DNA of 64,000 nucleotides, taken from contig MFPD01000019.1 of the NCBI GenBank assembly GCA_001784115.1, positions 30,244 to 94,243 of the forward strand, read 5' to 3'. Each line of letters begins with the position of its first letter. Position 1 is the first letter of the stretch. Shown here piece after piece: positions 26,433-43,217 of the stretch. This DNA comes from Candidatus Levybacteria bacterium RIFCSPLOWO2_02_FULL_37_18 (lineage in GTDB: Bacteria > Patescibacteriota > Microgenomatia > Levybacterales > UBA12049). The notes under the pieces were generated by a model. That model was not told where the DNA came from. It was given only the letters and a program-made list of their open reading frames with translations, and made no database searches. The position numbers and the translations under genes were made by a program.

Positions 26433-26440
26433 AATTAACC

Positions 26441-26508
26441 GTCATTGCGAGAAACGTAGTAACGAAGCAATCTCTTAATATGAGATTCATTGCTACGCTC
26501 GCAGTGAG
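26441..26508. repeat. Palindromic intergenic element, copy A (GTCATTGCGAG ... GCAATCTC-loop-GAGATTC ... CTCGCAGTGAG)
   Basis: Near-perfect hairpin between the glyQS start and the recO stop. Confidence 0.7.
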
Positions 26509-26561
26509 AAAATGTATATTGTTATAATAACAAAAAAGAAGAGGAGAATAAAGAAGCCATT

Positions 26562-27104
26562 TTACGAAAACTGGGGAATAATTTTTATTGCCTTAAGTCT
26601 CTTTTCTAAGATATCTTCTATAAACAAAGATGAGTCGAAATGTTGAGCAGCAAACTGAGGGGAATAAAACCCCAAAGCAGTCAAAAGTTCTATCTCGAAT
26701 TTCTTAACTAACAAACTAACATATTCTTCCTTTGAAAGCTTATCAAGCATGTCAAGCAACAGTGCATACACGTATTCATTCTCCTGATTTTCCGGACACA
26801 AACTATCTACTAATTCACACAGGTGATATGCATATCCAATACGTGATAACGAACGTTTTATGTCCGAATACGTATTGAGTGATTGAGCCTCTGTTAACAC
26901 CGGCATTCCATTATTTTTATAAACTGTTAAAAGCGTATGATTGAGAAGCTCTATGTGAGCAGATCTTCTACTGGTGATTTTTCGCACCCCCGAAGCTTTA
27001 ATGCTTAGTTTGCCATGTTTTTTGGCAAACACAGTCAAAATCCGATCTGCCTCATTATAATTTTTCCGTTTGATAACAATAGCTTCTGTTGTAAATGTTT
27101 TCAT
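26562..27104 (-). CDS. recO: DNA repair protein RecO (short form)
   Basis: 180 aa with an N-terminal OB-fold block. Confidence 0.65.
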   Translation of the reverse strand: MKTFTTEAIVIKRKNYNEADRILTVFAKKHGKLSIKASGVRKITSRRSAHIELLNHTLLTVYKNNGMPVLTEAQSLNTYSDIKRSLSRIGYAYHLCELVDSLCPENQENEYVYALLLDMLDKLSKEEYVSLLVKKFEIELLTALGFYSPQFAAQHFDSSLFIEDILEKRLKAIKIIPQFS

Positions 27105-27116
27105 TTTATTTTTCCT

Positions 27117-27214
27117 GTCATTGCGAGGAACTTTAGTTCCGAAGCAATCTTTCTATTGTCATGCTGAACTTGATTCAGCATCTCGTGAGATTGCTTCACT
27201 TCGTTCGCAATGAC
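27117..27214. repeat. Palindromic intergenic element, copy B (GTCATTGCGAGG ... TCGCAATGAC with an inner GCTGAActtgatTCAGC hairpin)
   Basis: Terminal inverted repeats and an internal hairpin. Confidence 0.7.
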
Positions 27215-27230
27215 ATTAGTAACATATTTA

Positions 27231-29174
27231 TTATAGGTTTAGTGTAAGAGTTTTGTCGGTTAATAACCCAAATTTTTCTTTTTGCGTTCCGTTGACTTTA
27301 ATTATGTATTCGTTTTTATCTGTACCTGGTTGTTTTTGAATTAACAATGGTAAGATATTGTTTTTAGCTTTAAAGGGAAGCGTATACTTAATGTTATACA
27401 CTGCGGTACCCAAAGGTCTGACTGTTAAAAATCCTTCAAAGACTGTTTTTCCTAAATCTTCGGCAGTTGTTACTTTTACTTCTGATCCTTGACTACTAAC
27501 CAATGTACTTCCTTTTGGTACGTAAATTCGTATCCAATCCCTAAACGTTGCGTTAATGCAAAGTCCTCCTCTTTCTAAATTACAATCAGACGGAGGATGA
27601 GGATTTTTGTAATTAATGGTAATTGTTTTAGTAATTGTCCCGCTATTATCTGTTTCTATATTTTGGGTCACTGCTTCTTGGGTAAAAAGATTTGATTTTG
27701 CTCCTCCCATATTCGCTTCGTTAATATGGAGGTAATCTCCATCAAATGCTTTAATTCTACCGGCGGCATTCAAGGCTTCAATTCCGCTTTGGGCGTCTTT
27801 GTCATAGAGATAAAACAATATATGTTTTTGGCTTACTTCATCAAGCAACTGTTGGAATAAAGGCCCCCAATATAATTTAGGAGAAGACTTAAGCGCTTTT
27901 TCCATAATTGAATAAAGCAATGCTCCCAAGATATCTTTTCTTCCTTCTTTTTCGTATCCAACCGGACGGGTAATATTATCCTCAAGTTCATAAATTACCT
28001 GTGGACAATCACATCTTTTATCTTGTTTTGTCGTAAACGCAATACCGGCTGCATCTACTCTATCGTCTAATTTATTTATAATAGAAACTAATACATGAGT
28101 ATCTAGAGCAATTATTCCATCAACATCTGTTTTTGAGCGTGCGAATTTATATAAAGAATTAAATGTATTCATAGACTCTACAAAATCAGGAGAAAGATTC
28201 GTATCTCTAATATTAAAATTAGGTACATTTGGTAAGTATTTTAAAATAGGATCCGGAGCTGGAAATGTTTTTGTCAGACTGTTGTCTAAATTATAAATAT
28301 CTTCAGACCTGTCTACATGAATTACTCCTTTTTCGATTCGAAATACAGCGTATGCTGTCATAAATCCGCCTGTAGGGCGAAGTTCTTTATCGTTTTGAAA
28401 CAAAATCAAGTATTTTCTGTCTTTTGACTCACCTAAAAGCGAAGGCAATACTTTTACCAACGGTCTTGCCTCGCTTACAAATGTAACTCCTTCATCTGCG
28501 AATGTTCTTACTGTTATCAGTTGTTTTCTGATCTTTTCTCCACCAAAAAACGGCGGGTAATGATTTGGGTTTACTTGGTCAATTTCTTCTTGCGCCGAAA
28601 GGAGCAACGATGATACGTCATCAATGCGAGGAGTGATTTTTGCCATTGTCAAAACCGCAGTTTTAATCCTATCTTCCGCACTTCCCATAACAAAACTTCC
28701 TCCCTGTCCCTTAAGACCTAAAACATCGGCATAGGGCTTTAAAGAATCAACTAAAATAGACGCTGCGTCAAGACCATAACCGCCTGCTTTTACCAAATGG
28801 TCTGCGTCTCCATAATAAAAATTTAAGACCGGAATAAAACGAAGTATGGAAAGCGTTGATAAATCTTGCTGTAATTGTTTTAAATCTTCTTTTGTTTTAA
28901 TTAGTTCTGTTGAGGCAAGCTCGACATTTTGTTTTTTAATCGCTTCCCAGGCTTTTTTTGCTTGCCTCTGAGTCCGCATAGATGCGGAGTATATTTTTCC
29001 AACCGGATATACAAGTAAAAGTCCCAACAAAATAATACCGATTACCATGCAAAACCCAACGCCGAATTTCTTTTGTGGGAGTTTAAATGTTTTCAGAGGA
29101 GATGTGAACACACGCTGGTTATCAGGTTCAGATTCATCTAGCTTACCAAGATCAATCTTCTTAAATTCAGACAT
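27231..29174 (-). CDS. Hypothetical large membrane-anchored protein (N-terminal TM, coiled-coil, extracytoplasmic domain)
   Basis: 647-aa ORF with no recognisable catalytic motif. Confidence 0.4.
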   Translation of the reverse strand: MSEFKKIDLGKLDESEPDNQRVFTSPLKTFKLPQKKFGVGFCMVIGIILLGLLLVYPVGKIYSASMRTQRQAKKAWEAIKKQNVELASTELIKTKEDLKQLQQDLSTLSILRFIPVLNFYYGDADHLVKAGGYGLDAASILVDSLKPYADVLGLKGQGGSFVMGSAEDRIKTAVLTMAKITPRIDDVSSLLLSAQEEIDQVNPNHYPPFFGGEKIRKQLITVRTFADEGVTFVSEARPLVKVLPSLLGESKDRKYLILFQNDKELRPTGGFMTAYAVFRIEKGVIHVDRSEDIYNLDNSLTKTFPAPDPILKYLPNVPNFNIRDTNLSPDFVESMNTFNSLYKFARSKTDVDGIIALDTHVLVSIINKLDDRVDAAGIAFTTKQDKRCDCPQVIYELEDNITRPVGYEKEGRKDILGALLYSIMEKALKSSPKLYWGPLFQQLLDEVSQKHILFYLYDKDAQSGIEALNAAGRIKAFDGDYLHINEANMGGAKSNLFTQEAVTQNIETDNSGTITKTITINYKNPHPPSDCNLERGGLCINATFRDWIRIYVPKGSTLVSSQGSEVKVTTAEDLGKTVFEGFLTVRPLGTAVYNIKYTLPFKAKNNILPLLIQKQPGTDKNEYIIKVNGTQKEKFGLLTDKTLTLNL

Positions 29175-29226
29175 AGTACTAATCTACCCAATACTCTCTT
29201 CCATGTCAAGCTTCCCCTGGCTCTAC

Positions 29227-29305
29227 GTCATTCTGAACTTGTTTCACCGCGTCTGACGCGGGGTTTCAGAATCTAAAAATAGAGATGCTGAACCAAATTC
29301 AGCAT
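29227..29305. repeat. Palindromic intergenic element, copy C (GTCATTCTGAAC ... CGCGTCTGACGCG ... TTCAGAATC, plus GATGCTGAAccaaaTTCAGCAT)
   Basis: Nested hairpins between the 647-aa gene start and the tyrA-pheA stop. Confidence 0.7.
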
Positions 29306-29313
29306 TACAATAA

Positions 29314-30639
29314 TTAACGGCTTACAAGTAAAAAACTCGTCACATTATGTTCCAAATCCTGTAAATCAGAGTCAATGATTTCAAAATCATACATATCGCT
29401 TAACGTCCGAGGACCTAAAATTGCCGTAGTTTTTGACAGTTTACCTTCTGCTAAAAACTGTGCAGCCCTTGCGGTATCAATTAAATCTCCACTTCCGCTT
29501 TCTTGTTTTAGATTGGGATATTTTTGGGCTAAAGAACCTCTGCATTGTTTTAAATTCTGAGAATGAGCATGGATTGAAGTAATATCGCTTAGTAAAACAT
29601 CTTTTCGTTTCATTAAAAAATGTCTTATTACAATTTCCTGTTCTTCTATTATTTTAAATGTATACTTTGCCATGGCAATAACTGATTCAGTAACAATTCC
29701 TCCAACAGCATTGTGTGTTGCAAATAATCCAAAATCAATTGTCCCTTCGTGAAGATTTCTTAATACCTTTTCTGAAGTATACAAGAATTTTATCTTGTAT
29801 TTTTTAATAGCATGTTTTTGAATATAACGTTGTATTGCTTCATCGTTAAAACTCCCTTTTCCGCCCTGAATACCAAACGTGACAAATTTCGGATGCGCTT
29901 GTTTTGGCAATAGTCTGTTATACAATTTGTCGTAAGCTTGCCCTAGTTTTAATCGCATCTGTTTGGTAAAAGGATTATATTGCTGCAAATCAGAGAATAA
30001 CTGCCATGTGTCATTACACGTCTGATCCTTTACTTCATACAGTTTTTTTGCGCCCAGCGAATCAATTAAAGTCGGAGAAAAATTAACCTCCTCAAGAAGT
30101 CTTCCTATAAAATGAGTAAGACCTTGCGAGTTCGCTGCAATTCTATCATGCTCTAAAGCTGACATTTCTATAACATTTAGTTTTTTGCTCTCAAAATATT
30201 TCTTCCAAAAAGAGTATGTATCCGCTGAAGTCATGAACCTGTCAAGAATCATGGGTAGACCTTCAAATCCATTTTTTGCACTATCTGGTCCAAACATTGG
30301 ATGAGCAAGAAGTACCTGAGTTTTTGTATTTTTTAGATATTTATTGAGCACAAATAAAGGAAACATTTTTACAGACAAAACATCTATTAAAACATGATTG
30401 TGTTTAAAATATTTTTTGTGTGTCTTAATTACACTTTCGAAAGAAGAAATTGGCACACAGTAAAAAATTATTTCGCTTTCATAAATTTTGGAAATTGTTT
30501 TGGCAATTGTAATATTTCTATCGACCGAACTTAAATCTAGTGAACTTCTATTATAGATAGTAATAGAAAAATCATCTTTTAGGAGTCTATATAACGTTTT
30601 TCCAAATCTTCCAAATCCTATAATACTGACCTTCTTCAT
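29314..30639 (-). CDS. Fused prephenate dehydrogenase (TyrA) - prephenate dehydratase (PDT) protein
   Basis: 441 aa. The N-terminal half has a GFGRFG Rossmann motif and HPMFGP, typical of prephenate/arogenate dehydrogenase. The C-terminal half has GGKGSFNDEA ... NVTSFLLVSR, typical of the PDT domain. Confidence 0.65.
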   Translation of the reverse strand: MKKVSIIGFGRFGKTLYRLLKDDFSITIYNRSSLDLSSVDRNITIAKTISKIYESEIIFYCVPISSFESVIKTHKKYFKHNHVLIDVLSVKMFPLFVLNKYLKNTKTQVLLAHPMFGPDSAKNGFEGLPMILDRFMTSADTYSFWKKYFESKKLNVIEMSALEHDRIAANSQGLTHFIGRLLEEVNFSPTLIDSLGAKKLYEVKDQTCNDTWQLFSDLQQYNPFTKQMRLKLGQAYDKLYNRLLPKQAHPKFVTFGIQGGKGSFNDEAIQRYIQKHAIKKYKIKFLYTSEKVLRNLHEGTIDFGLFATHNAVGGIVTESVIAMAKYTFKIIEEQEIVIRHFLMKRKDVLLSDITSIHAHSQNLKQCRGSLAQKYPNLKQESGSGDLIDTARAAQFLAEGKLSKTTAILGPRTLSDMYDFEIIDSDLQDLEHNVTSFLLVSR

Positions 30640-30650
30640 ACATCTATAAT

Positions 30651-30730
30651 GTCATTGCGAGGAGACACGTCTGACGTGTTCGACGTGGCAATCCCCTGAA
30701 TAGAGATTGCTTCGCTTCGCTCGCAATGAC
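30651..30730. repeat. Palindromic intergenic element, copy D
   Basis: GTCATTGCGAGGagacacgtctgacgtgtt ... GCAATC ... GAGATTGCttcgcttcgcTCGCAATGAC. It exactly fills the tyrA / chorismate mutase spacer. Confidence 0.7.
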
Positions 30731-30733
30731 AAT

Positions 30734-31003
30734 TTAACTCTTCCTTTCAATATCTAAAGACAAATTATGAATAACACCAAACAGTTTTTTAACAAATTCT
30801 GAAGGAAGATTCACTAATGTTCCTCTTAGTATTCGAGACGAAATAATCTCCTCCCATCTTTTTATATCTAAAGGATTTTCTCCCGATAATTTTTTTAGTC
30901 TGCCGATTTTTTTAACTGCCTCAAATCTTCTTGCCAAAATCTTAATGAGTTCCTCATCGATTTCATCTATTTCTTTTCGTATATCTTCTAAATCTTCATT
31001 CAT
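30734..31003 (-). CDS. Chorismate mutase (AroQ class)
   Basis: 89-aa all-helical protein (IRKEIDEIDEELIKILARRFE). Confidence 0.7.
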   Translation of the reverse strand: MNEDLEDIRKEIDEIDEELIKILARRFEAVKKIGRLKKLSGENPLDIKRWEEIISSRILRGTLVNLPSEFVKKLFGVIHNLSLDIERKS

Positions 31004-31011
31004 ACAGAGTC

Positions 31012-31074
31012 GTCATTGCGAGGAACTTGTGACGAAGCAATCTCACCAAGAGATTCCTTCGCTATCGCTCGCAG
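31012..31074. repeat. Palindromic intergenic element, copy E
   Basis: GTCATTGCGAGGaacttgtgacgaaGCAATCTCaccaaGAGATTccttcgctatcgCTCGCAG. It is flush between the aroC stop and the chorismate mutase start. Confidence 0.7.
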
Positions 31075-32187
31075 TTACAGGTAATCATAATTTTGGGCTT
31101 TGTGGCGTAAAAAATGATCCATAATTACCAATGCTGCCATTGCGTCAACAATCGGGACAGCCCGTGGCAAAACACAGGGATCATGTCTACCTGCTGCTTC
31201 AAGTTTTACTTCCTTTTTGTCTTTAGAAACAGTCAACTGCTCTTTTTTAATAGTTGAAACCGGCTTAAAAGCAACCCGAAAGTAAATTGTTTCTCCATTA
31301 GAAATCCCGCCCAAAACTCCTCCTGCATTATTGGTTTTTGTTCGTATCATAGAGTTTTCAAGATGGAATGGATCATTATGATTACTTCCTCGAAGCTTTG
31401 TCCCTTCAAAGCCTAAACCGATATCAAATCCTTTTACAGCGTTTATGGAAAGCATAGCTTTTCCTAAATCCGCATTAAGCTTATCAAACACGGGCTCACC
31501 TAAACCTACGGGTACATTTTTAATAACTCCCCTTACTACTCCGCCAATAGAATCTCCTTCTGATTTGACCTCCTCAATGAGCTTAATCATTTCCTCTGCA
31601 ACTTTGTGGTCAGGACACCTGACAATGTTTGATTCGATTTCTTCCATCGTAACCAAATTAAAATAAATATCAGTCTTAATCTGCCCAACTTGTTCCACAA
31701 AACTAAAAATTTCTACCCCAAGTTTTTCTTTTAAATATTTTTTTGCAATAGCCCCAGCAGCAACTCTGGCTAACGTTTCCCGTGCGGAAGCCCTACCGGA
31801 ACCATGCCAATCTCTAAAACCGTACTTTTTGGTATAGGTAAAATCTGCATGCCCAGGTCTAAATACATCTTTGATTTCCTGATACTCTTCAGGCCGAACG
31901 TCTTTGTTATAAGCCAAAAGTAAAATTGGCGTGCCAGTTGTTTTACCCTCAAAAACTCCTGACATTATTTTTATTTCATCTTCTTCTTTTCGGGGAGTTG
32001 TAATAGAAGATTGTCCCGGTTTTCTTCTGTCTAACTCTTTTTGAATTTCTTCTTCAGAAATTTTAATTCCAGGAGGGCAGCCGTCAACCACGCAACCAAC
32101 CACCCCGCCGTGGGATTCGCCAAACGTTGTAATCCTAAATAAATGTCCAAATGTATTTCCGGCCATAAGATTTCTCTTTTCTGTCAT
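31075..32187 (-). CDS. aroC: Chorismate synthase AroC
   Basis: 370 aa. The canonical N-terminus [21 protein letters not shown] suggests the true start is ~32166. The track start at 32187 lies inside palindromic element copy F. Confidence 0.9.
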
Positions 32188-32236
32188 CCCGGGCTTGACC
32201 CGGGATCAATAGATTCTGAATCAAGTTCAGAATGAC
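32183..32236. repeat. Palindromic intergenic element, copy F (GTCATCCCGGGcttgaCCCGGGATcaatagATTCTGAAtcaagTTCAGAATGAC)
   Basis: Lies between the aroD stop and the probable aroC start. Confidence 0.7.
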
Positions 32237-32237
32237 A

Positions 32238-32909
32238 TTATAATAACTCAAATATTTTCTCCAATTGTTTTTTTGTGAGCTGACCTTCTGCCGACTCTTC
32301 TGATTTTGTAATCGGCGCAAAAATCATTTCATTACCCCATATCGAACCGAAAATTCTCGTTACCATTCCAAAATTTCCCATTCCCAAAATAATGCACTTT
32401 ACATGTTTTTCTTTCATTGCCAAAAGCAACTCCAAAAGTCTTAATGCATCTTTTTGACTATTACACTTTGTTGCGATTTTAAAAATCGCAGGGGTGTATT
32501 GCTTCATTGTATCAAGAATTGCATAAAGCTTCTCATCTTCCGGAGTTTGGTCATAGTTATGATAAGAAATAATAGTTTTAATTTTAAGATCATTAGCTCT
32601 AATATACTCAAGCTCTTCTTTCTGATTAAATATATCTAAATCGAGTAGTGCTAAACTGTTGTTTAACAGAGAAATAATCTCTTGTCTTTTTTTTGAATTT
32701 AATTGAACTGCTTCCAGATTTTTTCTCCGGAAAACTAAAATAAGTTTTTCTCCCATTTGATCCGCTAGTTGTTTTACAAGCTCAACGTCAAGGTCTTTTA
32801 TATAATCCAACCACAGTTCAAAATAAGAATAATCTTGATTATTTTTAATAATCGCCACAATCTTCTCTTTTTTGTTTTTTACAATTGGCAGACAATAACG
32901 TATGTTCAT
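32238..32909 (-). CDS. aroD: 3-dehydroquinate dehydratase type I AroD
   Basis: 223-aa TIM-barrel-type sequence containing ISYHNY. Confidence 0.7.
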   Translation of the reverse strand: MNIRYCLPIVKNKKEKIVAIIKNNQDYSYFELWLDYIKDLDVELVKQLADQMGEKLILVFRRKNLEAVQLNSKKRQEIISLLNNSLALLDLDIFNQKEELEYIRANDLKIKTIISYHNYDQTPEDEKLYAILDTMKQYTPAIFKIATKCNSQKDALRLLELLLAMKEKHVKCIILGMGNFGMVTRIFGSIWGNEMIFAPITKSEESAEGQLTKKQLEKIFELL

Positions 32910-33721
32910 ACGTTTTTAAGAATAGCTTTTCTCATTGCTTCAACTGGCGCGTCAAAGCCTGTATATAATCTAAACTGTTGAGCACCCTGGTATAAAAGCA
33001 TTTCATATCCTAAGATTACTTGTGCGCCTTTTTCTTTGGCGTCTTTGATTAATCTTGTTTCTTTTGGGGTGTAAATAATATCAAACACAATGTGATCCTT
33101 ATTTAAGAACTTTTTATCAATTGGACTTTTATCTTCGTTCATACCAACAGAAGTAGCATTAATGAGTATATCCATATCTAAAACTTGTTCTAAAGAATCT
33201 AAGCCGCAGGCTCCACATGCAAATTCTTCAGCTAATGTATTTGCGTTTTTTAAAGATCTATTAAATAGAGTAATTATCGAACCTTTTTTCTTTAATCCAT
33301 AAATAATTGCCCGTGCAGCACCGCCTGCGCCCAAGAGTCCAACTCGTTTATTTTTTAGCTCTGTTTTTTTTTCTAGCGGAATCAGAGCACCTAACCAATC
33401 TGTGTTATATCCTTTTAATGCTCCGTTATCGTTTACAACAGTATTTACAGCGCCTATTTTCCTTGCAGTTTCATCAACCGTATCCATATATTTCATAATT
33501 TCAATTTTATGAGGAAGTGTTGCGCTTACTCCGGCTATCCCCATTGCTCTAACTCCCTTTATAAAATCGCTCATGTCTCTTATTTTTACATCGCAAGCAA
33601 CAAACACAAGCTCACTATCAATTCCCAAAGTTTTCAGTCCCGCATTGTGCATCTGAGGAGACAGCGAATGACCTATGGGATCACCAATTACCATACATAT
33701 TTTTGTTTTTGCAGTAATCAT
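32906..33721 (-). CDS. aroE: Shikimate dehydrogenase AroE
   Basis: 271 aa with a GLLGAGGAARA NADP-binding motif and an N-terminal substrate-binding domain. Confidence 0.85.
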   Translation of the reverse strand: MITAKTKICMVIGDPIGHSLSPQMHNAGLKTLGIDSELVFVACDVKIRDMSDFIKGVRAMGIAGVSATLPHKIEIMKYMDTVDETARKIGAVNTVVNDNGALKGYNTDWLGALIPLEKKTELKNKRVGLLGAGGAARAIIYGLKKKGSIITLFNRSLKNANTLAEEFACGACGLDSLEQVLDMDILINATSVGMNEDKSPIDKKFLNKDHIVFDIIYTPKETRLIKDAKEKGAQVILGYEMLLYQGAQQFRLYTGFDAPVEAMRKAILKNV

Positions 33722-35607
33722 AGTTTTAACAAAATCTCTTCAACAACTTCCTTAGGGCTTAATGTATCTGTTGCTATTATTTCATCTGCTGCCTGTCCAT
33801 ACAAGGTTTTTCGCTGTTTAAGAACCTCTCTTATTTCTTCTTTTCTGTTTTTTTTATTGGTTAAAAAGGGCCTATTTTTGGTATTGCCGGTTCTTTTTAC
33901 TAATGTTTCAACAGAAGCATCAAGCAAAACTAATGTGCCGCTTTTTTTAAGTGTGCTTACACTTTCTGTGTTAATAACAACTCCACCGCCCGTTGAAATA
34001 ATTGTATCAGAATATACGGCAACTTCTTTAACAACATCTGATTCTACTTTTCTAAAATAAGCCCATCCGTATTTTTCAACTATTAGAGCTATTGGCATAC
34101 CGACTTTTTTTGCCAACATCTCATCGAGTTCTATATGATTTTTTTGTAGTTTTTCCGCTAGCAGCTTTGCCACAGTTGTTTTACCGCTTCCCCGCATACC
34201 GATTAAAACAATATTTCTCCTCTTGTCGTTGCGATCCCGCTCAGCGGGAAAAGCAATCTCTGCGAGCTTCATCCAAAAATCAGGAAATGTTTTATTAACT
34301 ACCAAAGGGTTTTGTATTTCCATTCCCGAAAGCCTTGCACCGGCAACGGCAAAAGCCATTGCCATTCTATGATCTCCGTATGTTTCAATAGAAGCAGACT
34401 TTGGATTTCCTCCGTAAATTGTTAGAGTTGAATTGCTAGAGTCAGTTTTAATTCCCATTTTTTTTAATTCGTTTTTAATTGCCAAAAGCCGGTCTGTTTC
34501 TTTGATTTTAAGACTTTTAACACCGTGTATAATTGTAGTTCCATTTGCAAATGCGGCCAAAACCGAAAGGGTCATAACTTGATCCGGACAATTTTCCATA
34601 TTAACGTTTATAGGTCTTATTTTCCCCGAGCCTTTAACTGTCACTGCATTTTTTTTATACAATATTTTATTTCCCATTTTCTCTAAAATCTGCAAAAACT
34701 CTCTGTCAGCTTGCAAAGAATATGGATTAAGATTTTGGATTGTGATTGTTGAACCGGTCAAAGCAGCAATTGCAAAAAAATAAGAAGCGCTGGAAAAATC
34801 TCCTTCAACAGAATATTCTTTCCCGTTATATTTTTGTTTAAACATTTTATAACTTTTGTAGTTATTGTTAATTACGTTTGCTCCAAACTGTTTCATGGTA
34901 TCAATAGTCATATCAATATACTGCTTTGAAATTTGATCCCCCAAAACTTCAATCTCAACACTCCCTACTTTCGGAGCAATCATAAGCAAACTTGAAATAA
35001 ATTGACTACTAACTGATCCTTTTATTTTTACTGTTCCTTCGTTTAGTTTTGAACTTAAAATTTTAACCGGCGGATATCCTTTTTTACCAAGATATTCTAT
35101 TTTTGCACCCATTTGAATTAGGGCATCAACCAAATCTCCAATTGGACGATTGTTAAGTCCTTCTTCTCCAGATACTGTTTTAACTCCGGGAATAATGCAT
35201 GCAAGGGCTAAGATAAACCTCATGGTTGTTCCCGAAAGTCTAGCACTCAAAGAGTACGATTGATTATTCGCCTTGTTGTCATCCCGAACTCGCTTCAGCC
35301 GCGTTTGACGCGGTTTCGGCATCTCTTGTTTCAGCATTTTAGATCCTGAAATACCTTGCCTGCCGGCAGGCAGGAATTCAGGATAACCGGGAAAGATCTC
35401 TATGTAGTTATTTCCTACATGAACATTTACTCCCAGCGCTCTCAAACATCTTATCATCGCCTCCGTGTCTTCACTTACCAAAGGATTGATAATCGTAACC
35501 TTCTTTTCCGTCAAAGCAGCCAAAAATAAAGCTCTATTGGTGTAGCTTTTTGAGCCCGGTATGTCTATGGTTTTTGCAACTGGTTGTTGTAATGGAATAA
35601 TTTTCAT
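33718..35607 (-). CDS. aroA: Bifunctional EPSP synthase (AroA) - shikimate kinase (AroK) fusion; the AroA N-domain carries a ~45-aa palindromic-element-derived insertion
   Basis: 629 aa. The AroA core (IPGSKSYTNRALFLAAL ...) is followed by a C-terminal shikimate kinase P-loop (GMRGSGKTTVAKLLAEKL). The insertion FLPAGRQGISGSKMLKQEMPKPRQTRLKRVRDDNKANNQSYS is encoded by repeat copy G. Confidence 0.85.
   Translation of the reverse strand: MKIIPLQQPVAKTIDIPGSKSYTNRALFLAALTEKKVTIINPLVSEDTEAMIRCLRALGVNVHVGNNYIEIFPGYPEFLPAGRQGISGSKMLKQEMPKPRQTRLKRVRDDNKANNQSYSLSARLSGTTMRFILALACIIPGVKTVSGEEGLNNRPIGDLVDALIQMGAKIEYLGKKGYPPVKILSSKLNEGTVKIKGSVSSQFISSLLMIAPKVGSVEIEVLGDQISKQYIDMTIDTMKQFGANVINNNYKSYKMFKQKYNGKEYSVEGDFSSASYFFAIAALTGSTITIQNLNPYSLQADREFLQILEKMGNKILYKKNAVTVKGSGKIRPINVNMENCPDQVMTLSVLAAFANGTTIIHGVKSLKIKETDRLLAIKNELKKMGIKTDSSNSTLTIYGGNPKSASIETYGDHRMAMAFAVAGARLSGMEIQNPLVVNKTFPDFWMKLAEIAFPAERDRNDKRRNIVLIGMRGSGKTTVAKLLAEKLQKNHIELDEMLAKKVGMPIALIVEKYGWAYFRKVESDVVKEVAVYSDTIISTGGGVVINTESVSTLKKSGTLVLLDASVETLVKRTGNTKNRPFLTNKKNRKEEIREVLKQRKTLYGQAADEIIATDTLSPKEVVEEILLKL
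35278..35375. repeat. Palindromic element, copy G, inside the aroA coding sequence and in frame
   Basis: GTCATCCCGAACtcgcTTCAGcCGCGTTTGACGCGg ... cttGCCTGCCGGCAGGCagg. It shares the CGCGTYTGACGCG and CCTGCCGGCAGG modules with other copies. Confidence 0.65.
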
Positions 35608-35613
35608 ATTGTT

Positions 35614-36690
35614 TCAGGAAGCAACAAATTCCAAAGCTTTTTTTATGTTTTGATCAGATACTTCCTGCCCGGTCTGACACGTTCCAATACCAGAAAGAAG
35701 GGTAAAATACACAATTCCTCTTTCACTTTTTTTATCCGATTTAATTTTTTCCATTACTTTTTTATGATCAATATTCTGTGCTTTTGTCGGCAATCCTGCA
35801 TGCTCTAAAGCCTTTGTTATAGTTTCTAAATCCTCCTGTTTTAATATATTTTTCAGAACTGAAATCTTTCCTTCTGCAATCATACCAATACTTACAGCTT
35901 CCCCATGAAGCAACGGACTTCCTGACTCTAAACTCAAACTTTCCAAAGCATGACCAATGGTATGGCCAAAGTTAACGAGCCTTCGCCTATCTTTTTCTGT
36001 TACATCTTCTTCAACAATACATTTTTTTATTTCGATTGAACCACTAACGACTTTACTTAATTCTTTTTGACTAAACTCCTTTGGTTTTTTTGAAGTTACA
36101 AAATTAAAATAACTCCTATCTGCAATTGCACCGTGTTTGATAACCTCACCAAATCCTTCCGTAAGTATTCGGTCGGAAAGGGATTCTAGAACAGAAACAT
36201 CACACATAACCCCAATTGGCTGTCTAAAAACACCAATAAGATTTTTAACTCCCAAAAAATTAATTCCTGTTTTTCCGCCTATTGATGAGTCAACTTGAGC
36301 AAGCAAAGTAGTTGGAATTTGTAAGAAATCCAGTCCCCTCATGAATGTACTGGCCGCAAATCCACCCATATCTCCAATTACCCCTCCGCCAATATTAATA
36401 ACCAAAGATTTTCTGTCGCAACCAATTTCGAGCAACTGCCTCCATATTTCCAAAATGCACGTAATACTCTTTGCCCTTTCACCGCAAGGGATAATAATTG
36501 TTGAGATGTTTTGGGGAAAATACGGCACGATCTTTTTAAGAAATAAATTCTCAATGTGCGTATCTGTAATTACCACAATTTTAGAATAGGAATACAAATC
36601 AAACTTAGTAATTGCATCAAGAATTCCGCTTCCAACAAAAATTGGATATGATTTCTTATCTGATGCAATATTTATTTGTATCTTTCTCAT
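35614..36690 (-). CDS. aroB: 3-dehydroquinate synthase AroB
   Basis: 358 aa with a GGGVIGDMGGFAAS NAD-binding motif. Confidence 0.85.
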   Translation of the reverse strand: MRKIQINIASDKKSYPIFVGSGILDAITKFDLYSYSKIVVITDTHIENLFLKKIVPYFPQNISTIIIPCGERAKSITCILEIWRQLLEIGCDRKSLVINIGGGVIGDMGGFAASTFMRGLDFLQIPTTLLAQVDSSIGGKTGINFLGVKNLIGVFRQPIGVMCDVSVLESLSDRILTEGFGEVIKHGAIADRSYFNFVTSKKPKEFSQKELSKVVSGSIEIKKCIVEEDVTEKDRRRLVNFGHTIGHALESLSLESGSPLLHGEAVSIGMIAEGKISVLKNILKQEDLETITKALEHAGLPTKAQNIDHKKVMEKIKSDKKSERGIVYFTLLSGIGTCQTGQEVSDQNIKKALEFVAS

Positions 36691-37520
36691 GTTTTAAAAG
36701 GCAAATGCATTGTAGCTCCCCCAAAACCATGAACCAGTTTTGCCCGTTTTACTCTTTTTTTATACAGGCTTTTTAAAAGTCTTCTAAATTGCGACCAGGC
36801 AAGTTGTTGGATCGCGTCAGATAGAGCTTTTTTTGGATTTGGATGGACTTCGACTAGAAACCCATCAAACTCATGCTCATTTGCTTCATGTGTAATTTTT
36901 ATGACTTTTTCGATACTTCCACCTGTGTGGGAAGGGTCAAAAATCATGGCAAGTCCGGTTTTTTCCTTCATTCGCATTGCCATATTATAGTCCGGAACAT
37001 TTCTGTATCCTTGCGGATTATCACCAATTGGCGCAAATCCTCTGTGACAGAGAATAAGATGTGACTTTTTTATTCCACCGGATAAACAGTGTTCTACGAT
37101 TCCTTCCCAATGCTTTTCATTGTGCCATATCTGGTTTTTTACCATAAGAACAGTGCGCGGATTTCTTGCTGCAATCCTGGAAACTTCCCTTTGAATGTAG
37201 TGGTTTTGGTTTCTGGCTCCTATCCAAAGCATACATTTTCCGTTTTTTGTAGCAGTCATCACTGCGTCCATGGCTAGTTTTGCATGCTCAGGAATCATAG
37301 GCTCAACTGCTGGATTCACACCCATCTTGGCTGCCTCAACTAAAAGCTTTATTCCTTCTTCTCCAATTCCCTCAAATCCTGGCTTTGTCCGTGGTTTCCA
37401 TAGGCTGAGCCGAACGTACTCTACTCCAATTTTTTTTGCCTGTTTAACGGTTTCTAAAACCTGATCGCGCGACTCAACTGCGCATGGGCCTACGATGAGC
37501 ATTTTTTTAGGTATCTTCAT
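36687..37520 (-). CDS. 3-deoxy-D-arabino-heptulosonate 7-phosphate synthase (DAHP synthase, class I-beta, KDO8PS-like)
   Basis: 277 aa beginning LIVGPCAVESRDQ, a motif I associate with class I-beta DAHP synthases and KDO8P synthases. Confidence 0.75.
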   Translation of the reverse strand: MKIPKKMLIVGPCAVESRDQVLETVKQAKKIGVEYVRLSLWKPRTKPGFEGIGEEGIKLLVEAAKMGVNPAVEPMIPEHAKLAMDAVMTATKNGKCMLWIGARNQNHYIQREVSRIAARNPRTVLMVKNQIWHNEKHWEGIVEHCLSGGIKKSHLILCHRGFAPIGDNPQGYRNVPDYNMAMRMKEKTGLAMIFDPSHTGGSIEKVIKITHEANEHEFDGFLVEVHPNPKKALSDAIQQLAWSQFRRLLKSLYKKRVKRAKLVHGFGGATMHLPFKT

Positions 37521-37525
37521 ATGTA

Positions 37526-37556
37526 TAAAAAAACAAAAACTCCCTTCAGGGAGCTA
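37526..37556 (-). terminator. Intrinsic-terminator-like hairpin plus U-tract abutting the DAHP synthase start codon (candidate attenuator)
   Basis: Minus strand reads AGCTCCCTGAAGGGAGTTTTTGTTTTTTT and ends ~6 nt before the ATG. A second small hairpin, CTCCGAAGGGAG, lies ~50 nt upstream. Confidence 0.45.
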
Positions 37557-37738
37557 GCTTGGTCTATTCGTAATTGGTTTTACGACGTCAACAAGCCCTC
37601 CCTTCGGAGTTTATAAAATAAAACCAAAAATAAGCTTCGCGACTTATAATCACACTATAGGTATAGTATACAAAACTCTTTACTCTAAAGTCAAATTAGT
37701 ATTTTCATAAATAACTGTTCACAGTTCTAATACAGACT

Positions 37739-37833
37739 GTCATGCTGGAGTGTAAACGATAGCATCTAATTTTGGGAGGTGGTTCTTCGACCTGCCTGCC
37801 GGCAGGCAGGTCGGCCTTAAGCCTCAAGAATGA
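37739..37833. repeat. Palindromic element, copy M, in the aro-operon leader; includes a perfect 26-bp palindrome CGACCTGCCTGCCGGCAGGCAGGTCG (37788-37813)
   Basis: The ends GTCATGCTGGAG ... CTCAAGAATGAC form imperfect inverted repeats. The GC-rich palindrome is shared with copy G. Confidence 0.6.
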
Positions 37834-37917
37834 CAAGTTTATGTCAAAGGAGTAAACAGTTACCTTTATCTTTGACACCCTTGGGGTGGAAACGAAGCTG
37901 CACCCGCGGATTTTATG

Positions 37918-38709
37918 TTATTTTGAATCTAAATTCTTCATAAATTGTACAACGTTTTTTGAGATTTCAGATGGTTTTGAGAAGTTGATAATGTTAATAA
38001 TTGCGCTGCCTATTACAGCGATATCTGCATGTTTTTTAAGCGCTTTAACATGTTCTTTTTTGGAGATTCCAAAACCCACTGCAAGTGGAATAGAAAAATG
38101 TGAACGTACTTTTTTGAGGTATGAACTTAATTCTGGGTTCAATTCTTCTTTCACTCCTGTTATTCCCTGTCTGGCTGTACAATACACAAATCCTTTGGCG
38201 ATTTTTGCATTTTTTCGCAAACGTTGCTCTGTGGAAGCCGGAGAAATCACTTGAATGTTGTATAGATTAAACGTTTTACTATAAGCATAGAACTTTTCAT
38301 TTCCCTCTTCATCAATTGACATATCCGGAACAATAAGTCCAGAAATTCCTGCAGCTTTTGAATCTTTTATAAACTGTTTAATTCCGTACTTAAACACAGT
38401 ATTATAATACGCCATAAATAAAAGCGAAATAGAAACTTGAGAACTTAAATCTTTGGCAATCTTGAAGCAGTCTCTAACTTTTGTTCCATTATTCAAAGAT
38501 TTCTCGCATGCTTTCATAATTGTTGGCCCATCAGCCAAAGGATCGGAAAAAGGAATTTGAAGCTCGACAAAATCAGCTCCGCATTCTGCCATGGTTTTTA
38601 CTATTTGGACAGTTTTTTCAAGCGTCGGATATCCAACCACAACATGAGTCATGATTCCTAGCTTCTTATTTTTCTTGATTTCTGACAGTTTTTGATCAAT
38701 AGAGTTCAT
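37918..38709 (-). CDS. trpA: Tryptophan synthase alpha subunit TrpA
   Basis: 263 aa with ELQIPFSDPLADGPTI. Confidence 0.9.
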   Translation of the reverse strand: MNSIDQKLSEIKKNKKLGIMTHVVVGYPTLEKTVQIVKTMAECGADFVELQIPFSDPLADGPTIMKACEKSLNNGTKVRDCFKIAKDLSSQVSISLLFMAYYNTVFKYGIKQFIKDSKAAGISGLIVPDMSIDEEGNEKFYAYSKTFNLYNIQVISPASTEQRLRKNAKIAKGFVYCTARQGITGVKEELNPELSSYLKKVRSHFSIPLAVGFGISKKEHVKALKKHADIAVIGSAIINIINFSKPSEISKNVVQFMKNLDSK

Positions 38710-40684: not shown

Positions 40685-40770
40685 GTCATTACGAGGAGGT
40701 CGCTTGATGCGACCGACGCGGCAATCTCCTAATCGTAAAACTACGATTGCTTCACTTCGTTCGCAATGAC
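40685..40770. repeat. Palindromic element, copy H; its distal inverted repeat encodes the last codons and stop of trpC
   Basis: GTCATTACGAGGaggtcgcttgatgcgaccgacgcgGCAATCTCctaatcgtaaaactacGATTGCttcacttcgtTCGCAATGAC. The coding strand of trpC ends ...ttg tca ttg cga acg aag tga (LSLRTK*). Confidence 0.7.
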
Positions 40771-41549
40771 AATATAAAATCTTTTATATTTTTCGCTTTC
40801 ATTAAACTCGTTCCCACAAGCACTCCTTTTGCTCCTGCTTCCCTATATTTTTGAACTTCTTGCGAACTTTTGATTCCTGAGAATCCCAGTTTTATAAATT
40901 TGTCTGGAACTTGTTTTAGAATTTCAGATGCTCTATCAACATCCACCTCAAAAGTATCCAAATCTCTTGCGTTAACTGCAATTATATATGGTTTTGAGTC
41001 GATCGCTCTTTCTATATGTTCTAAACTATCAATTTCAACAACTGGTTCAATACCTAAACCTATGGCATATTGAACTAATTCAGAAAGTTTTTTGTTACCA
41101 ACAATTCTTGCAATTAAAAGCACCGCATCAGCGCCTGATTTTATACCTTCGGCAATTTGATATGTATCAATAATAAAATCTTTCATAAGAATGGGAAGAT
41201 TGGTATTTTTCTTAATTTGATCAATTAGTTTAATATCTCCATTAAAAAAATGTTTTTCAACAACTAAAGAAATTGCATCAGCGTCTGCTTTTTCATATGC
41301 TTTTACCCGCTTTAGAATAGTTTTTTTTGAACCAAGATCTCCTTCACTTGGAGACGCTAACTTAATCTCCGCAATCAGAGTAATATCTTTTTTTGGATTG
41401 AGAATCGAATTCCTGAAATTACTCAAATTATAAACCGTTCCTTTTCGAGATTCTGGATGCGCCTTCGGCTTACCAGAATGACGTTTTTTTCTTTTTTTCA
41501 AATCTCTTTTTGTTTGCTCAACTATTTTTTGAAGTATTTTATTTTTCAT
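40752..41549 (-). CDS. trpC: Indole-3-glycerol phosphate synthase TrpC
   Basis: 265-aa TIM barrel. The C-terminus LSLRTK is contributed by repeat copy H. Confidence 0.85.
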   Translation of the reverse strand: MKNKILQKIVEQTKRDLKKRKKRHSGKPKAHPESRKGTVYNLSNFRNSILNPKKDITLIAEIKLASPSEGDLGSKKTILKRVKAYEKADADAISLVVEKHFFNGDIKLIDQIKKNTNLPILMKDFIIDTYQIAEGIKSGADAVLLIARIVGNKKLSELVQYAIGLGIEPVVEIDSLEHIERAIDSKPYIIAVNARDLDTFEVDVDRASEILKQVPDKFIKLGFSGIKSSQEVQKYREAGAKGVLVGTSLMKAKNIKDFILSLRTK

Positions 41550-42583: not shown

Positions 42584-42625
42584 TCATTGATTCCTTAATT
42601 GTCATTCTAAACTTGATTCAGAATC
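42584..42625. repeat. Palindromic element, copy I (GTCATTCTAAACttgaTTCAGAATC); one arm supplies the trpG RF* terminus
   Basis: The coding strand of trpG ends ...aga ttc tga within the TTCAGAATC arm. Confidence 0.6.
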
Positions 42626-43217
42626 TAAACAAAAAATTTTCAAGCATAATTTTTCCTGCTTCTGTTGCAAATGATTCCGGATGAAACTGAACTCCCTCAA
42701 TTGGATATTCCTTGTGTCTTAATCCCATAATCTCACCATCATCTTGTACTGTTGCTGTTATTTCCAAACAGTTGGGCAATGAACTTTTCTCCGCAATCAA
42801 AGAATGATATCGCATTACTTCTAAATTTTGCGGTAATCCAAAAAATACCCCCTTTCCATCGTGTTTAATAGTACTTGTTTTTCCATGCATTGGTTTTTTT
42901 GCTCTAACAACTTTTCCGCCGAAGTAATGCGCCATTCCCTGCATTCCAAGACATACACCAAGTATTGGAATGTGTTTTTCTAACTCTGTTAGAACTTCAG
43001 CGCAAGCTCCAAAGTATGCTTTATCAGCAGGATTACCTGGGCCAGGAGAGATAATAATTCTATCGTATTTTTTCTCTTGAATTTCGGAAAGCGTTATATC
43101 GTCATTACGAAAAACATCTACGGCAAATGGTTTTTCCCTTTGCTCTAAAATTTCTCCTACATACTGATATAAATTAAAAGTAAACGAATCGTAATTGTCT
43201 AGTATAAGTATTTTCAT
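42618..43217 (-). CDS. trpG: Anthranilate synthase component II (glutamine amidotransferase) TrpG
   Basis: 199 aa with a GVCLGMQ nucleophile elbow and an HPES motif. Confidence 0.9.
   Translation of the reverse strand: MKILILDNYDSFTFNLYQYVGEILEQREKPFAVDVFRNDDITLSEIQEKKYDRIIISPGPGNPADKAYFGACAEVLTELEKHIPILGVCLGMQGMAHYFGGKVVRAKKPMHGKTSTIKHDGKGVFFGLPQNLEVMRYHSLIAEKSSLPNCLEITATVQDDGEIMGLRHKEYPIEGVQFHPESFATEAGKIMLENFLFRF

What the first reader, a model, noticed from the sequence alone, without database searches (positions are those of the whole stretch)
35262..35400. In-frame insertion of the palindromic element into EPSP synthase (aroA), adding ~45 residues without breaking the ORF
The AroA N-domain has a sequence gap between IEIFPGYPEF and LSARLSGTTMRFILAL. 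That gap is filled by a ~45-aa insertion, LPAGRQGISGSKMLKQEMPKPRQTRLKRVRDDNKANNQSYS. The encoding DNA is element copy G, with the modules GTCATCCCGAAC ..., CGCGTTTGACGCG and GCCTGCCGGCAGGC, the last shared with the aro-leader copy. The 629-aa fused AroA-AroK ORF stays open through it.

This parallels Rickettsia palindromic elements, which insert in frame into housekeeping genes. It is an unusual case of a mobile palindrome becoming part of an essential enzyme, presumably as a surface loop.
Basis: partly seen in the sequence, partly recalled or inferred. Interest (0 to 1): 0.75.

Follow-up and report, generated by a model that had tools for sequence, protein, structure and literature searches.

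The report
Palindromic repeat translated inside EPSP synthase
A 110-base pair of hairpin repeats, of a kind that normally sits between genes, has landed in frame inside the essential aroA gene of a Levybacteria (candidate phyla radiation) bacterium and is read as a floppy 35-residue extra loop; this is a real and tidy new example of the phenomenon already known from Rickettsia.

Summary
The fused aroA-aroK ORF (33718-35607, minus strand, 629 aa) has 45 residues where 102 of 108 orthologs have exactly 10 and none has more. The extra DNA is a 110-nt unit (35278-35387), 52% GC in a 36% GC gene. It is a head-to-head dimer of two short hairpin repeats. Each has a C/TGTC tag, an 8-bp stem starting AT and a 3-nt tail, and each loop holds a second, GC-rich palindrome.

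Sister copies fill most gene junctions of this aro/trp cluster and occur in other Microgenomates genomes. Only one of the element's six reading frames lacks stops, and it is the one in use. AlphaFold models a normal EPSP synthase (TM 0.90 to E. coli) with residues 78-110 disordered between two strands. All family-invariant residues are intact. About 20 independent contigs carry the same 629-aa protein, so it is not an assembly artefact.

The insert is most likely a tolerated passenger loop. Intragenic REPs are already documented, so this is a new member of a known kind, newly seen in Patescibacteria.

The parts
33718..35607 (-). Fused aroA-aroK gene (EPSP synthase + shikimate kinase), 629 aa, which hosts the insertion
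   Evidence: ORF list. Pfam EPSP_synthase 4e-113 and SKI 4e-44. The fusion is the norm in this clade. All 70-odd columns that are invariant across the family are intact in this protein.
35278..35387 (-). The inserted element: a 110-nt head-to-head (tags outside) dimer of CGTC-type REP hairpins, translated as G74(partial)-D110
   Evidence: Terminal inverted repeats GTCATCCCGAAC and GAATTCAGGATAAC. The RNA fold is a 14-bp terminal stem closing three hairpins, -46.5 kcal/mol, z = -3.65, with 0 of 200 shuffles as stable. GC is 52% against 36% for the rest of the gene. Only 1 of the 6 frames is stop-free, and it is the frame in use.
35277..35325 (+). Left REP unit: tag TGTC (35277-35280), stem ATCCCGAA (35281-35288) / TTCGGCAT (35315-35322), tail CTC (35323-35325), with the loop expanded to 26 nt
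   Evidence: It is 39-42 of 49 positions identical to nested-CGCG REP copies in Roizmanbacteria and Levybacteria genomes and to the window copy at 29226.
35299..35313 (.). Nested GC-rich palindrome CCGCGTTTGACGCGG inside the loop of the left REP
   Evidence: The same nested hairpin sits at the same place in the window copy at 29227-29272 and in 9 loci from genome contigs.
35326..35339 (.). Spacer between the two REP units (TTGTTTCAGCATTT)
   Evidence: Published head-to-head (HH) dimers have spacers of 1-100 bp.
35340..35387 (-). Right REP unit in the opposite orientation: degenerate tag (GGTT here, GGTC in the allele on L001), stem ATCCTGAA / TTCAGGAT with 8 of 8 pairs (35377-35384 and 35343-35350), tail CTA, loop expanded to 26 nt
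   Evidence: (L001 row 3221-3265).
35355..35374 (.). Nested palindrome CTTGCCTGCCGGCAGGCAGG inside the loop of the right REP; it encodes LPAGRQG
   Evidence: One mismatch from CCTGCCTGCCGGCAGGCAGG at 37791-37810; 0 matches expected by chance.
35260..35277 (-). Native loop remnant on the C-terminal side of the element (N111-Q116, NKANNQ)
   Evidence: Alignment with orthologs and codon map.
35388..35394 (-). Native loop remnant on the N-terminal side (F72, P73 and the first base of G74)
35385..35385 (.). Population SNP (Y75H). The alternative allele restores the canonical GTCAT terminus and turns a U-G pair of the terminal stem into C-G.
35364..35364 (.). Population SNP (G82C), in the 4-nt loop of the nested GCCGGC hairpin
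29226..29310 (+). Closest sister copy in the window: an intergenic head-to-head dimer made of a REP with the same nested CGCG hairpin plus a simple REP
37738..37835 (+). Aro-leader copy: a dimer bounded by TGTCATGCTGGA and TCAAGAATGACA, carrying the nested 26-nt palindrome CGACCTGCCTGCCGGCAGGCAGGTCG

Best explanation
What it is. A head-to-head dimer of CGTC-tagged REP hairpins was inserted into the loop-coding DNA between two beta-strands of the aroA part of the fused aroA-aroK gene. This is the same repeat type that occupies the gene junctions of this aromatic amino-acid gene cluster. The host is one species-level lineage of Candidatus Levybacteria.

Why it survived. The unit happened to land in the only orientation and phase (1 of 6) that has no stop codon, and the length change was a multiple of three (net +105 nt). 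The gene therefore stayed open.

What it does now. The element is transcribed and translated with the gene. It adds a basic (pI about 10.6), hydrophilic, probably disordered loop of about 35 residues. The loop sits at the start of the strand that leads into the LSGTT helix, that is, at the end of that strand away from the catalytic cleft. The enzyme folds and works normally, so the insert is a tolerated passenger rather than a new functional part.

Shown: the insertion, its repeat identity and architecture, the open frame, its reproducibility in many assemblies, the intact catalytic residues, and the predicted fold with a disordered insert.

Inferred: that it is translated, that the enzyme is active, that the loop is distal to the active site, and that it is selectively neutral.
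For: - Insertion: 45 residues here against exactly 10 in 102 of 108 orthologs, and never more than 10.
- Composition: GC 52% against 36% for the gene.
- Repeat identity: tag, 8-bp AT-initiated stem, tail and tags-outside dimer all match the REP definition in PMC3733652. The simple form occurs 6 times in the window against 0 expected. The left unit is 80-86% identical to copies in Roizmanbacteria and Levybacteria genomes.
- Frame: the only stop-free frame of six is the one used.
- Reproducibility: the cluster holds four protein variants, all 629 aa, on 5 + 13 + 1 + 1 contigs from ENA, NCBI (four MAG accessions), JGI and Logan.
- Fold: AlphaFold mean pLDDT is 89.5, with only residues 78-110 (plus the aroA-aroK linker) below 50. 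The insert lies between strands 68-72 and 117-121. Foldseek gives TM 0.90 and rmsd 2.6 A to E. coli EPSPS 1g6s, with 463 alignment columns for a 427-residue target.
- Function retained: all family-invariant residues are present, including K20, S21, R25, G126, R130, D342, K369, R373, H413, R414 and K439. The whole shikimate operon around the gene is intact.
- Relaxed constraint: 2 of the 3 differences between two population contigs over 7,890 nt fall inside the 110-nt element, and both are non-synonymous.
- No protein module: the 45-aa peptide has no detectable homolog among 1.84 billion representative proteins.
- Precedent: intragenic CGTC and GTAG REPs and RPEs are documented.
Against: - There is no direct evidence of translation or enzyme activity, because no proteomic or biochemical data exist for this uncultured organism.
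- No empty-site allele or close relative is available. The next ortholog is only 58-61% identical, so the insertion event is inferred from distant comparison, and its exact junctions and any target duplication cannot be resolved.
- The model's coordinates could not be inspected, so 'distal to the cleft' rests on fold topology alone.
- Both population SNPs happen to preserve RNA pairing, and an intragenic REP in a neighbouring glycosyltransferase gene is conserved across species. A nucleotide-level role is therefore not excluded.
Confidence: 0.8

Rival explanations
1. The insert is kept because it works as a nucleic-acid element, for example an RNA structure that stabilises, processes or paces translation of the long aro/trp polycistronic mRNA, or a protein-binding DNA site. 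On this view the extra peptide is only the price paid.
For: REP units sit at nearly every junction of the trp-aro-pheA/tyrA cluster on the transcribed strand: 26441, 27117-27230, 29226-29310, 30651-30747, 31012-31075, 32183-32237, 37738-37835, 40685-40787 and 42600-42626. The insert folds strongly (-46.5 kcal/mol, z = -3.65). Both known SNPs preserve the predicted pairing. A single REP inside the GT4 gene (48647-48673) sits at the same position in orthologs of 55-69% identity. Its 8-bp stem is perfect in two of the four genes examined, and those two use identical codons at 9 of 9 positions against a background of about 58%.
Against: The aroA insert is confined to one species-level lineage, and none of 108 orthologs has it. 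It is the most polymorphic stretch in 7.9 kb, which suggests relaxed rather than strong constraint. Two SNPs are far too few to test covariation. Di Nocera et al. (PMC3733652) argue against general functional constraint on intragenic REPs.
Confidence: 0.13
2. The insertion has crippled or inactivated EPSP synthase, so the gene is an early-stage pseudogene or a neofunctionalised copy.
For: A 35-residue basic insertion ends 14 residues before position 124, which aligns with E. coli N94 of the substrate-binding motif. Candidate phyla radiation (CPR) bacteria are often auxotrophic (general knowledge).
Against: The ORF is intact in about 20 contigs. All invariant catalytic residues are conserved. 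The other pathway genes in the operon (DAHP synthase, aroB, aroE, aroD, aroC, chorismate mutase) are called as full-length genes with the expected Pfam domains. The predicted fold is unperturbed. Outside the element the gene shows only one difference between the two contigs compared.
Confidence: 0.05
3. The element is not in the mature protein because it is spliced from the mRNA, bypassed by ribosomes, or excised as a protein segment.
For: It forms a compact, closed RNA structure with a 14-bp terminal stem.
Against: The element is 110 nt long, not a multiple of three, so precise removal would shift the frame. There is no in-frame stop that would make a bypass necessary, and the only open frame is the one in register with the gene. 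No Rfam family, including the intron families, matches. At about 37 residues it is far too small for an intein, and Pfam finds no extra domain.
Confidence: 0.01
4. The feature is an assembly chimera, or a lineage-specific native loop that only resembles the repeats by chance.
For: None beyond the general risk that metagenome assemblers collapse or misjoin repeats.
Against: The same 629-aa length was recovered in four variants on about 20 contigs, produced by different assemblers and repositories, on contigs of up to 163 kb. Zero chance matches are expected for the repeat modules.
Confidence: 0.01

Closest known systems
CGTC-tagged REPs (Di Nocera, De Gregorio & Rocco 2013, BMC Genomics 14:522; PMC3733652)
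   Same: Shared features: a C/TGTC tag at one end, an 8-bp stem whose first two positions are A and T, a 5-nt loop in the simple copies (CTTGA), a 3-nt unpaired tail, mostly dimers with the tags outside ('HH'), a mostly intergenic position between co-directional genes, and occasional intragenic copies that are read in frame (searches compared).
   Different: The host phylum, Patescibacteria/Microgenomates, is not among the five phyla listed in that paper. The tail is CTC or CTA rather than the CCA consensus, although CCA tails do occur in Roizmanbacteria copies (L003). In the aroA copy both loops are expanded to 26 nt by a second, GC-rich palindrome.
Rickettsia palindromic elements (RPE; Ogata et al. 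2000 Science 290:347; 2002 Genome Res 12:808)
   Same: Both are palindromic units of about 100-150 bp inserted in frame into housekeeping genes, without destroying the ORF, at positions compatible with the fold. RPE-4 and RPE-6 were assigned to the same CGTC superfamily.
   Different: The host is a different phylum with a different lifestyle (a groundwater CPR bacterium, not an intracellular alphaproteobacterium). Sequence similarity to the RPE consensus sequences could not be tested here. RPE-1 encodes a conserved peptide family, whereas this peptide has no detectable relatives.
Bacterial MITEs that make in-frame fusions (Coxiella QMITE1/2, intragenic ERIC, BOX, Anabaena MITEs; PMC5896051, PMC10969869)
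   Same: These are also small non-autonomous inverted-repeat elements, and their insertion into ORFs adds basic peptides and raises the protein's pI. The insert here has a pI of 10.6.
   Different: No target-site duplication and no parent IS are visible here. The unit is built from REP hairpins rather than from IS-derived terminal repeats.
REPIN / RAYT system (REP doublets mobilised by IS200/IS605-like tyrosine transposases)
   Same: The mobile unit is a doublet of inverted REP hairpins, and no target duplication is produced.
   Different: REPINs carry the GTAG tag and have an associated RAYT gene. CGTC repeats have no known dedicated transposase, and no RAYT gene was looked for in this window.

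Membership tests
CGTC-tagged REP superfamily (PMC3733652) | Terminal CGTC tag (TGTC or CCTC allowed) at one end of the hairpin | tested here: met
   The left unit has TGTC at 35277-35280. The right unit is degenerate: GGTT in the window and GGTC in the allele on L001. Sister copies have TGTC or CGTC.
CGTC-tagged REP superfamily (PMC3733652) | Stem of 8-9 bp with complementary A and T in the first and second positions | tested here: met
   ATCCCGAA/TTCGGCAT pairs at 7 of 8 positions and ATCCTGAA/TTCAGGAT at 8 of 8. Sister copies have ATTCTGAA, ATGCTGAA and ATCCTGAA.
CGTC-tagged REP superfamily (PMC3733652) | Loop of 4-5 nt | tested here: not met
   Both units of the aroA copy have 26-nt loops that contain a nested palindrome. 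The simple sister copies do have 5-nt loops (CTTGA, CTCGT). The paper notes aberrant loops in some families. The aroA copy is therefore a loop-expanded variant of the family.
CGTC-tagged REP superfamily (PMC3733652) | Short (3-nt) unpaired tail at the untagged end | tested here: met
   The tails are CTC (35323-35325) and CTA (the reverse complement of 35340-35342). The published consensus is CCA, which is seen in L003 copies.
CGTC-tagged REP superfamily (PMC3733652) | Predominantly 'HH' dimers (tags outside); multicopy and mostly intergenic | tested here: met
   The aroA unit and the copies at 29226-29310, 32183-32237 and 37738-37835, together with most copies in L002-L010, are tags-outside dimers. 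About 13 repeat loci lie in the 64-kb window, and 10 of them are at gene junctions.
CGTC-tagged REP superfamily (PMC3733652) | No dedicated transposase flanked by the repeats | not tested
   The window's ORFs were not screened for Y1 or other transposases.
Rickettsia palindromic elements (RPE-1 to RPE-10) | Sequence similarity to an RPE family consensus; resident in Rickettsia | not testable with these tools
The host is Candidatus Levybacteria, so this is not an RPE in the strict sense.
Rickettsia palindromic elements (RPE-1 to RPE-10) | In-frame insertion into a conserved protein-coding gene, at a site compatible with the fold | tested here: met
MITE | Terminal inverted repeats flanked by a target-site duplication | tested here: inconclusive
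   Terminal inverted repeats are present (a 14-nt imperfect pair). No direct repeat flanks the aroA copy or the intergenic dimers in L002-L007. Without an empty site this cannot be settled.
Self-splicing insert (group I/II intron, intein) | Ribozyme or intein motifs, and a length that restores the frame on removal | tested here: not met
   No Rfam match at E <= 1. The element is 110 nt, not a multiple of 3. Pfam finds no extra domain.

The most novel reading that the evidence does not exclude
Levybacteria and their Microgenomates relatives may be a second, independent 'Rickettsia-like' case in which CGTC-type REP hairpins repeatedly become protein sequence. In that case intragenic hairpins would persist through speciation, with their palindromes kept at the nucleotide level. 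They would also grow by nesting further palindromes into their loops, in frame. REPs would then be both a conserved nucleic-acid signal inside genes and a steady source of new surface loops in these reduced genomes.

Hints seen here:
- The GT4 REP is shared by orthologs of 55-69% identity, and three of them carry nested in-frame additions.
- REP-like segments occur in trpC and in a Roizmanbacteria ArnT-like protein.
- An independent GC-rich palindromic insert lies in the neighbouring AroA loop of another CPR bacterium.
Probability: 0.3. Interest if true: 0.6.

Novelty: new member of a known kind. Interest (0 to 1): 0.4.

Why it matters
This case shows that 'protein-coding palindromes' are not peculiar to Rickettsia and a few Proteobacteria. 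It extends the CGTC-REP superfamily to the candidate phyla radiation. It is also a clean, reproducible natural example of a core metabolic enzyme that appears to absorb a 35-residue disordered loop; all family-invariant residues remain and the predicted fold is normal.

Practically, it explains an odd split Pfam hit and a length outlier in AroA. It also warns annotators that REP-derived peptides such as 'EILKQVQND', 'LPAGRQG' and 'RHSGKPK..PESR' inside CPR proteins come from repeats and are not novel domains.

The case would matter more if the side observation holds, namely that some intragenic REPs are conserved at the nucleotide level across species. That would point to a function for hairpins inside coding regions.

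Tried and rejected
- Rfam scan of 26000-38500 at E <= 1. No family matched the element. The only hits were weak ones to Phe_leader and RefA5.
- Search for the whole composite (CGCG hairpin, 20-50 nt, GCCGGC palindrome) in JGI metagenome contigs. Two unrelated loci came back, with no second copy of the aroA-type dimer and no hit to this organism. Whether the full unit moved as one piece or gained the GCCGGC palindrome in place therefore stays open.
- Empty-site allele. None exists among 5.8 billion clustered proteins. The next hit after the 629-aa cluster is 58% identical, so presence/absence polymorphism could not be shown.
- phmmer of the 45-aa segment (F72-Q116, the insert plus its native loop flanks) against 1.84 billion representative proteins gave 0 hits, so there is no peptide family behind the insert.
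- Target-site duplication. None could be recognised at the aroA junctions or at intergenic dimers.
- PDB sequence alignments to test the GT4 and trpC inserts. The GT4 alignment did not cover the N-terminal region. TrpC showed no clear net length gain. The GT4 case was settled instead with orthologs.
- Ogata 2002 could not be read, so no direct comparison with RPE consensus sequences was made.
- Model coordinates are not exposed, so distances from the insert to the active site could not be measured.
- The four-haplotype pattern at Y75H/G82C was considered as evidence of recombination. It was set aside because metagenome consensus contigs can mix strains.
Full report
**The gene and the extra segment**

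The ORF at 33718-35607 on the minus strand is open for 629 codons. Pfam finds EPSP_synthase, split into two stretches, followed by shikimate kinase. In alignments to solved EPSP synthases, query residues 1-63 match E. coli 1-65 and query residues 124 onward match E. coli 94 onward, which leaves too much sequence in between.

A search of 5.8 billion clustered proteins returned the identical protein and then orthologs of only 50-58% BLASTP identity. Almost all are fused AroA-AroK proteins of 595-602 aa from Microgenomates such as Daviesbacteria, Levybacteria and Roizmanbacteria. Between the conserved 'IEV' strand and 'SYxLxAxLSGTT', 102 of 108 orthologs have exactly 10 residues, six have 3-9, and none has more. 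The window has 45. The net gain is 35 residues. The 'LSGTT' motif, in place of the usual GNSGTT, is native to the clade and was not damaged by the insertion.

**Anatomy of the insert**

The foreign DNA is 35278-35387, 110 nt, at 52% GC against 36% for the rest of the gene. It consists of two hairpin units in opposite orientation.

- Left unit, plus strand: TGTC tag, stem ATCCCGAA (35281-35288) / TTCGGCAT (35315-35322), tail CTC.
- Right unit, read on the minus strand: a degenerate tag, stem ATCCTGAA / TTCAGGAT, tail CTA.
- Spacer: 14 nt lie between the two tails.
- Each unit's loop is 26 nt instead of 5, because each holds a further GC-rich palindrome. These are CCGCGTTTGACGCGG (35299-35313) and CTTGCCTGCCGGCAGGCAGG (35355-35374).

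As RNA, the coding strand folds into a 14-bp terminal stem that closes three hairpins. The energy is -46.5 kcal/mol, z = -3.65, and no shuffle out of 200 folds as well. In protein terms the element supplies two bases of G74 and all of Y75-D110.

**It belongs to a repeat family**

The simple form TGTCATNCTGAACTTGATTCAGNATCT occurs six times in the window with up to 3 mismatches, against 0.00 expected. The 20-nt GCCGGC palindrome recurs in the aro leader, with 0 expected by chance. The copy at 29226-29310 has the same architecture as the aroA insert, namely a unit with the nested CGCG hairpin plus an inverted simple unit.

A pattern scan of one genome per species found the nested-CGCG unit in nine loci. 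Eight are from Roizmanbacteria, Levybacteria or other Patescibacteria, and at least six of the nine form tags-outside dimers. The aroA left unit is 80-86% identical to them.

In the window the repeats sit at most junctions of a long co-directional cluster. The cluster runs trpEGDCFBA, leader, DAHP synthase, aroB, aroA-K, aroE, aroD, aroC, chorismate mutase and tyrA/pheA.

**What the family is**

The features match the published definition of CGTC-tagged REPs:

- a CGTC or TGTC tag;
- an 8-9-bp stem starting with A and T;
- a 4-5-nt loop;
- a 3-nt tail;
- mostly 'HH' dimers with the tags outside;
- intragenic units that do occur;
- no dedicated transposase (PMC3733652).

That paper assigns R. 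conorii RPE-6 and RPE-4 to CGTC-1 and CGTC-4. It also catalogues REPs inside known genes, with dimers encoding 20-30 aa and clusters encoding 43-82 aa. The aroA copy departs from the definition only in its expanded loops. Patescibacteria are not among the five phyla listed in the paper, and I found no paper on REPs in this group.

**Why the gene survives**

Of the element's six reading frames, five contain stops. The single open frame is the one in register with aroA. This is what is expected if insertions in other phases were eliminated by selection.

AlphaFold, run with 109 aligned sequences, gives a mean pLDDT of 89.5. Only residues 78-110 and the AroA-AroK linker fall below 50. The insert lies between strands 68-72 and 117-121, and it precedes the strand that leads into the LSGTT helix. 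The model matches closed E. coli EPSP synthase at TM 0.90 and rmsd 2.6 A, with 463 alignment columns for a 427-residue target. All family-invariant residues are present. The insert peptide is basic (pI 10.6) and hydrophilic, and it has no homolog among 1.84 billion representative proteins.

That the loop is distal to the cleft is my inference from the beta-alpha-beta topology of the fold. The model's coordinates could not be inspected.

**It is not an artefact**

The 90% cluster contains four variants, all 629 aa, on 5 + 13 + 1 + 1 contigs from ENA, NCBI (four Levybacteria MAG accessions), JGI and Logan. The variants differ only at Y75H and G82C, and both sites lie inside the element.

Over 7,890 aligned nt, the window and contig L001 differ at three sites, and two of them fall in the 110-nt element. 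By my own binomial estimate the chance of that is about 6e-4. One SNP restores the canonical GTCAT terminus, changing a U-G pair to C-G. The other lies in a hairpin loop. This fits relaxed constraint on the peptide, but two sites are too few to test whether the RNA structure is under selection.

**Rivals**

- A nucleic-acid role is the only serious alternative, and I put it at 0.13. The evidence for and against it is set out in the rival explanations.
- Inactivation of the enzyme is unlikely, given the intact residues, operon and fold.
- Splicing or ribosomal bypass is very unlikely. The element is 110 nt, there is no in-frame stop to avoid, and Rfam has no match.

**Side observations**

- A single canonical REP lies inside a GT4 glycosyltransferase gene (48647-48673) and encodes EILNQVQDD. 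Orthologs of 55-69% identity carry a peptide of the same length, EILKQVQND, at the same place. In two of them the DNA hairpin is perfect and all nine codons are identical, against a background of about 58%. Three others have additional in-frame segments inside the REP-encoded stretch; in the one whose DNA was read (P0125/L015) the addition lies in the REP loop.
- TrpC has a REP-like segment near its N terminus, and its last residues and stop codon come from another repeat.
- A Roizmanbacteria ArnT-like ORF carries a similar in-frame unit.
- Ortholog P0093 has an independent 20-residue insert, encoded by a GC-rich palindrome, in the neighbouring AroA loop.
- The aro leader encodes a short peptide with six consecutive aromatic codons, followed by alternative hairpins and a terminator.

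**Verdict**

The finding is real and correctly interpreted. It is a clean new member of a known class, newly seen in the candidate phyla radiation, and of moderate interest.

Noticed in passing
window 48647-48673, inside the GT4 glycosyltransferase gene 47658-48809 (minus strand); loci L014, L015, L016: A single canonical CGTC-REP lies in frame and encodes 'EILNQVQDD'. Orthologs of 55-69% identity have a peptide of the same length, 'EILKQVQND', at the same position. In two of them the DNA keeps a perfect 8-bp hairpin with identical codons at all nine positions. Three orthologs (P0125, P0126, P0232) have extra in-frame segments inside the REP-encoded stretch; P0125/L015, the only one whose DNA was read, has 'KPLRQAQGK' nested in the REP loop. 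This looks like an ancient intragenic REP whose palindrome is partly conserved.
   Followed up: partly
window 37521-37700 (minus strand is the sense strand), upstream of the DAHP synthase gene: The region holds a promoter-like TTGACT...TATACT, then a short ORF ...SREAYFWFYFINSEGRAC* with six consecutive aromatic codons. It overlaps the alternative hairpins CTCCGAAGGGAG and CTCCCTGAAGGGAG, followed by a T-run. Rfam Phe_leader gives only a weak hit (27 bits, gathering score 55). It looks like a leader-peptide attenuator for the aro operon in a CPR bacterium.
   Followed up: partly
window 41450-41482 and 40752-40787, in trpC (40752-41549, minus strand): A CGTC-tagged hairpin with an expanded loop encodes 'RHSGKPKAHPESR' near the TrpC N terminus. 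No clear net length gain is seen against PDB homologs. The last residues (ILSLRTK) and the stop codon of trpC come from a GTCATTGCGA-type repeat.
   Followed up: partly
L013 (Logan SRR22387935 contig), aroA-aroK ortholog P0093, residues 68-87: An independent 20-residue insert (SSQGGSASPPKDDRPPAGGG) lies in the loop just upstream of the one hit in the window. It is encoded by a GC-rich palindrome (-43 kcal/mol over 90 nt). Seven other orthologs carry 10-12 extra residues at that same loop. This part of AroA appears permissive to insertions.
   Followed up: partly
L009 2315-2360, inside ORF 1288-2790 (Roizmanbacteria; ArnT/PMT-like membrane glycosyltransferase by eye): A tagged hairpin with a nested palindrome lies in frame and encodes 'SHSGKSRAESRDATR'. 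It resembles the trpC segment.
   Followed up: no
window 29227-29272 and 35278-35322; loci L002-L010: The nested hairpin CCGCGTYTGACGCGG always sits at the same point of the REP's 3' arm and is flanked by a duplicated TTTCA(G). This looks like a 15-nt palindrome inserted with a 5-6-nt duplication, after which the variant spread as a subfamily across Microgenomates genomes.
   Followed up: partly
window 26441-27230, 30651-30747, 31012-31075, 40685-40787: A second repeat type, GTCATTGCGAG...GCAATC / GATTGCTTCRCTTCGYTCGCAATGAC, shares the junctions with the CTGAA-type units. It also starts with C/TGTCAT. It would encode the 'RFARNDK' and 'ASLAMT'-like peptides that I recall from many spurious ORFs in other phyla (from memory, not tested).
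   Followed up: no
L011 3384-3432 (JGI contig Ga0209542_10056498): The CGCG hairpin and the CCTGCCTGCCGGCAGGCAGG palindrome lie 20-50 nt apart in an unrelated metagenome contig, around a stretch that looks like the 5' part of a tRNA (GCGGGCGTGGTGAAATTGGCAGAC). This was not examined.
   Followed up: no
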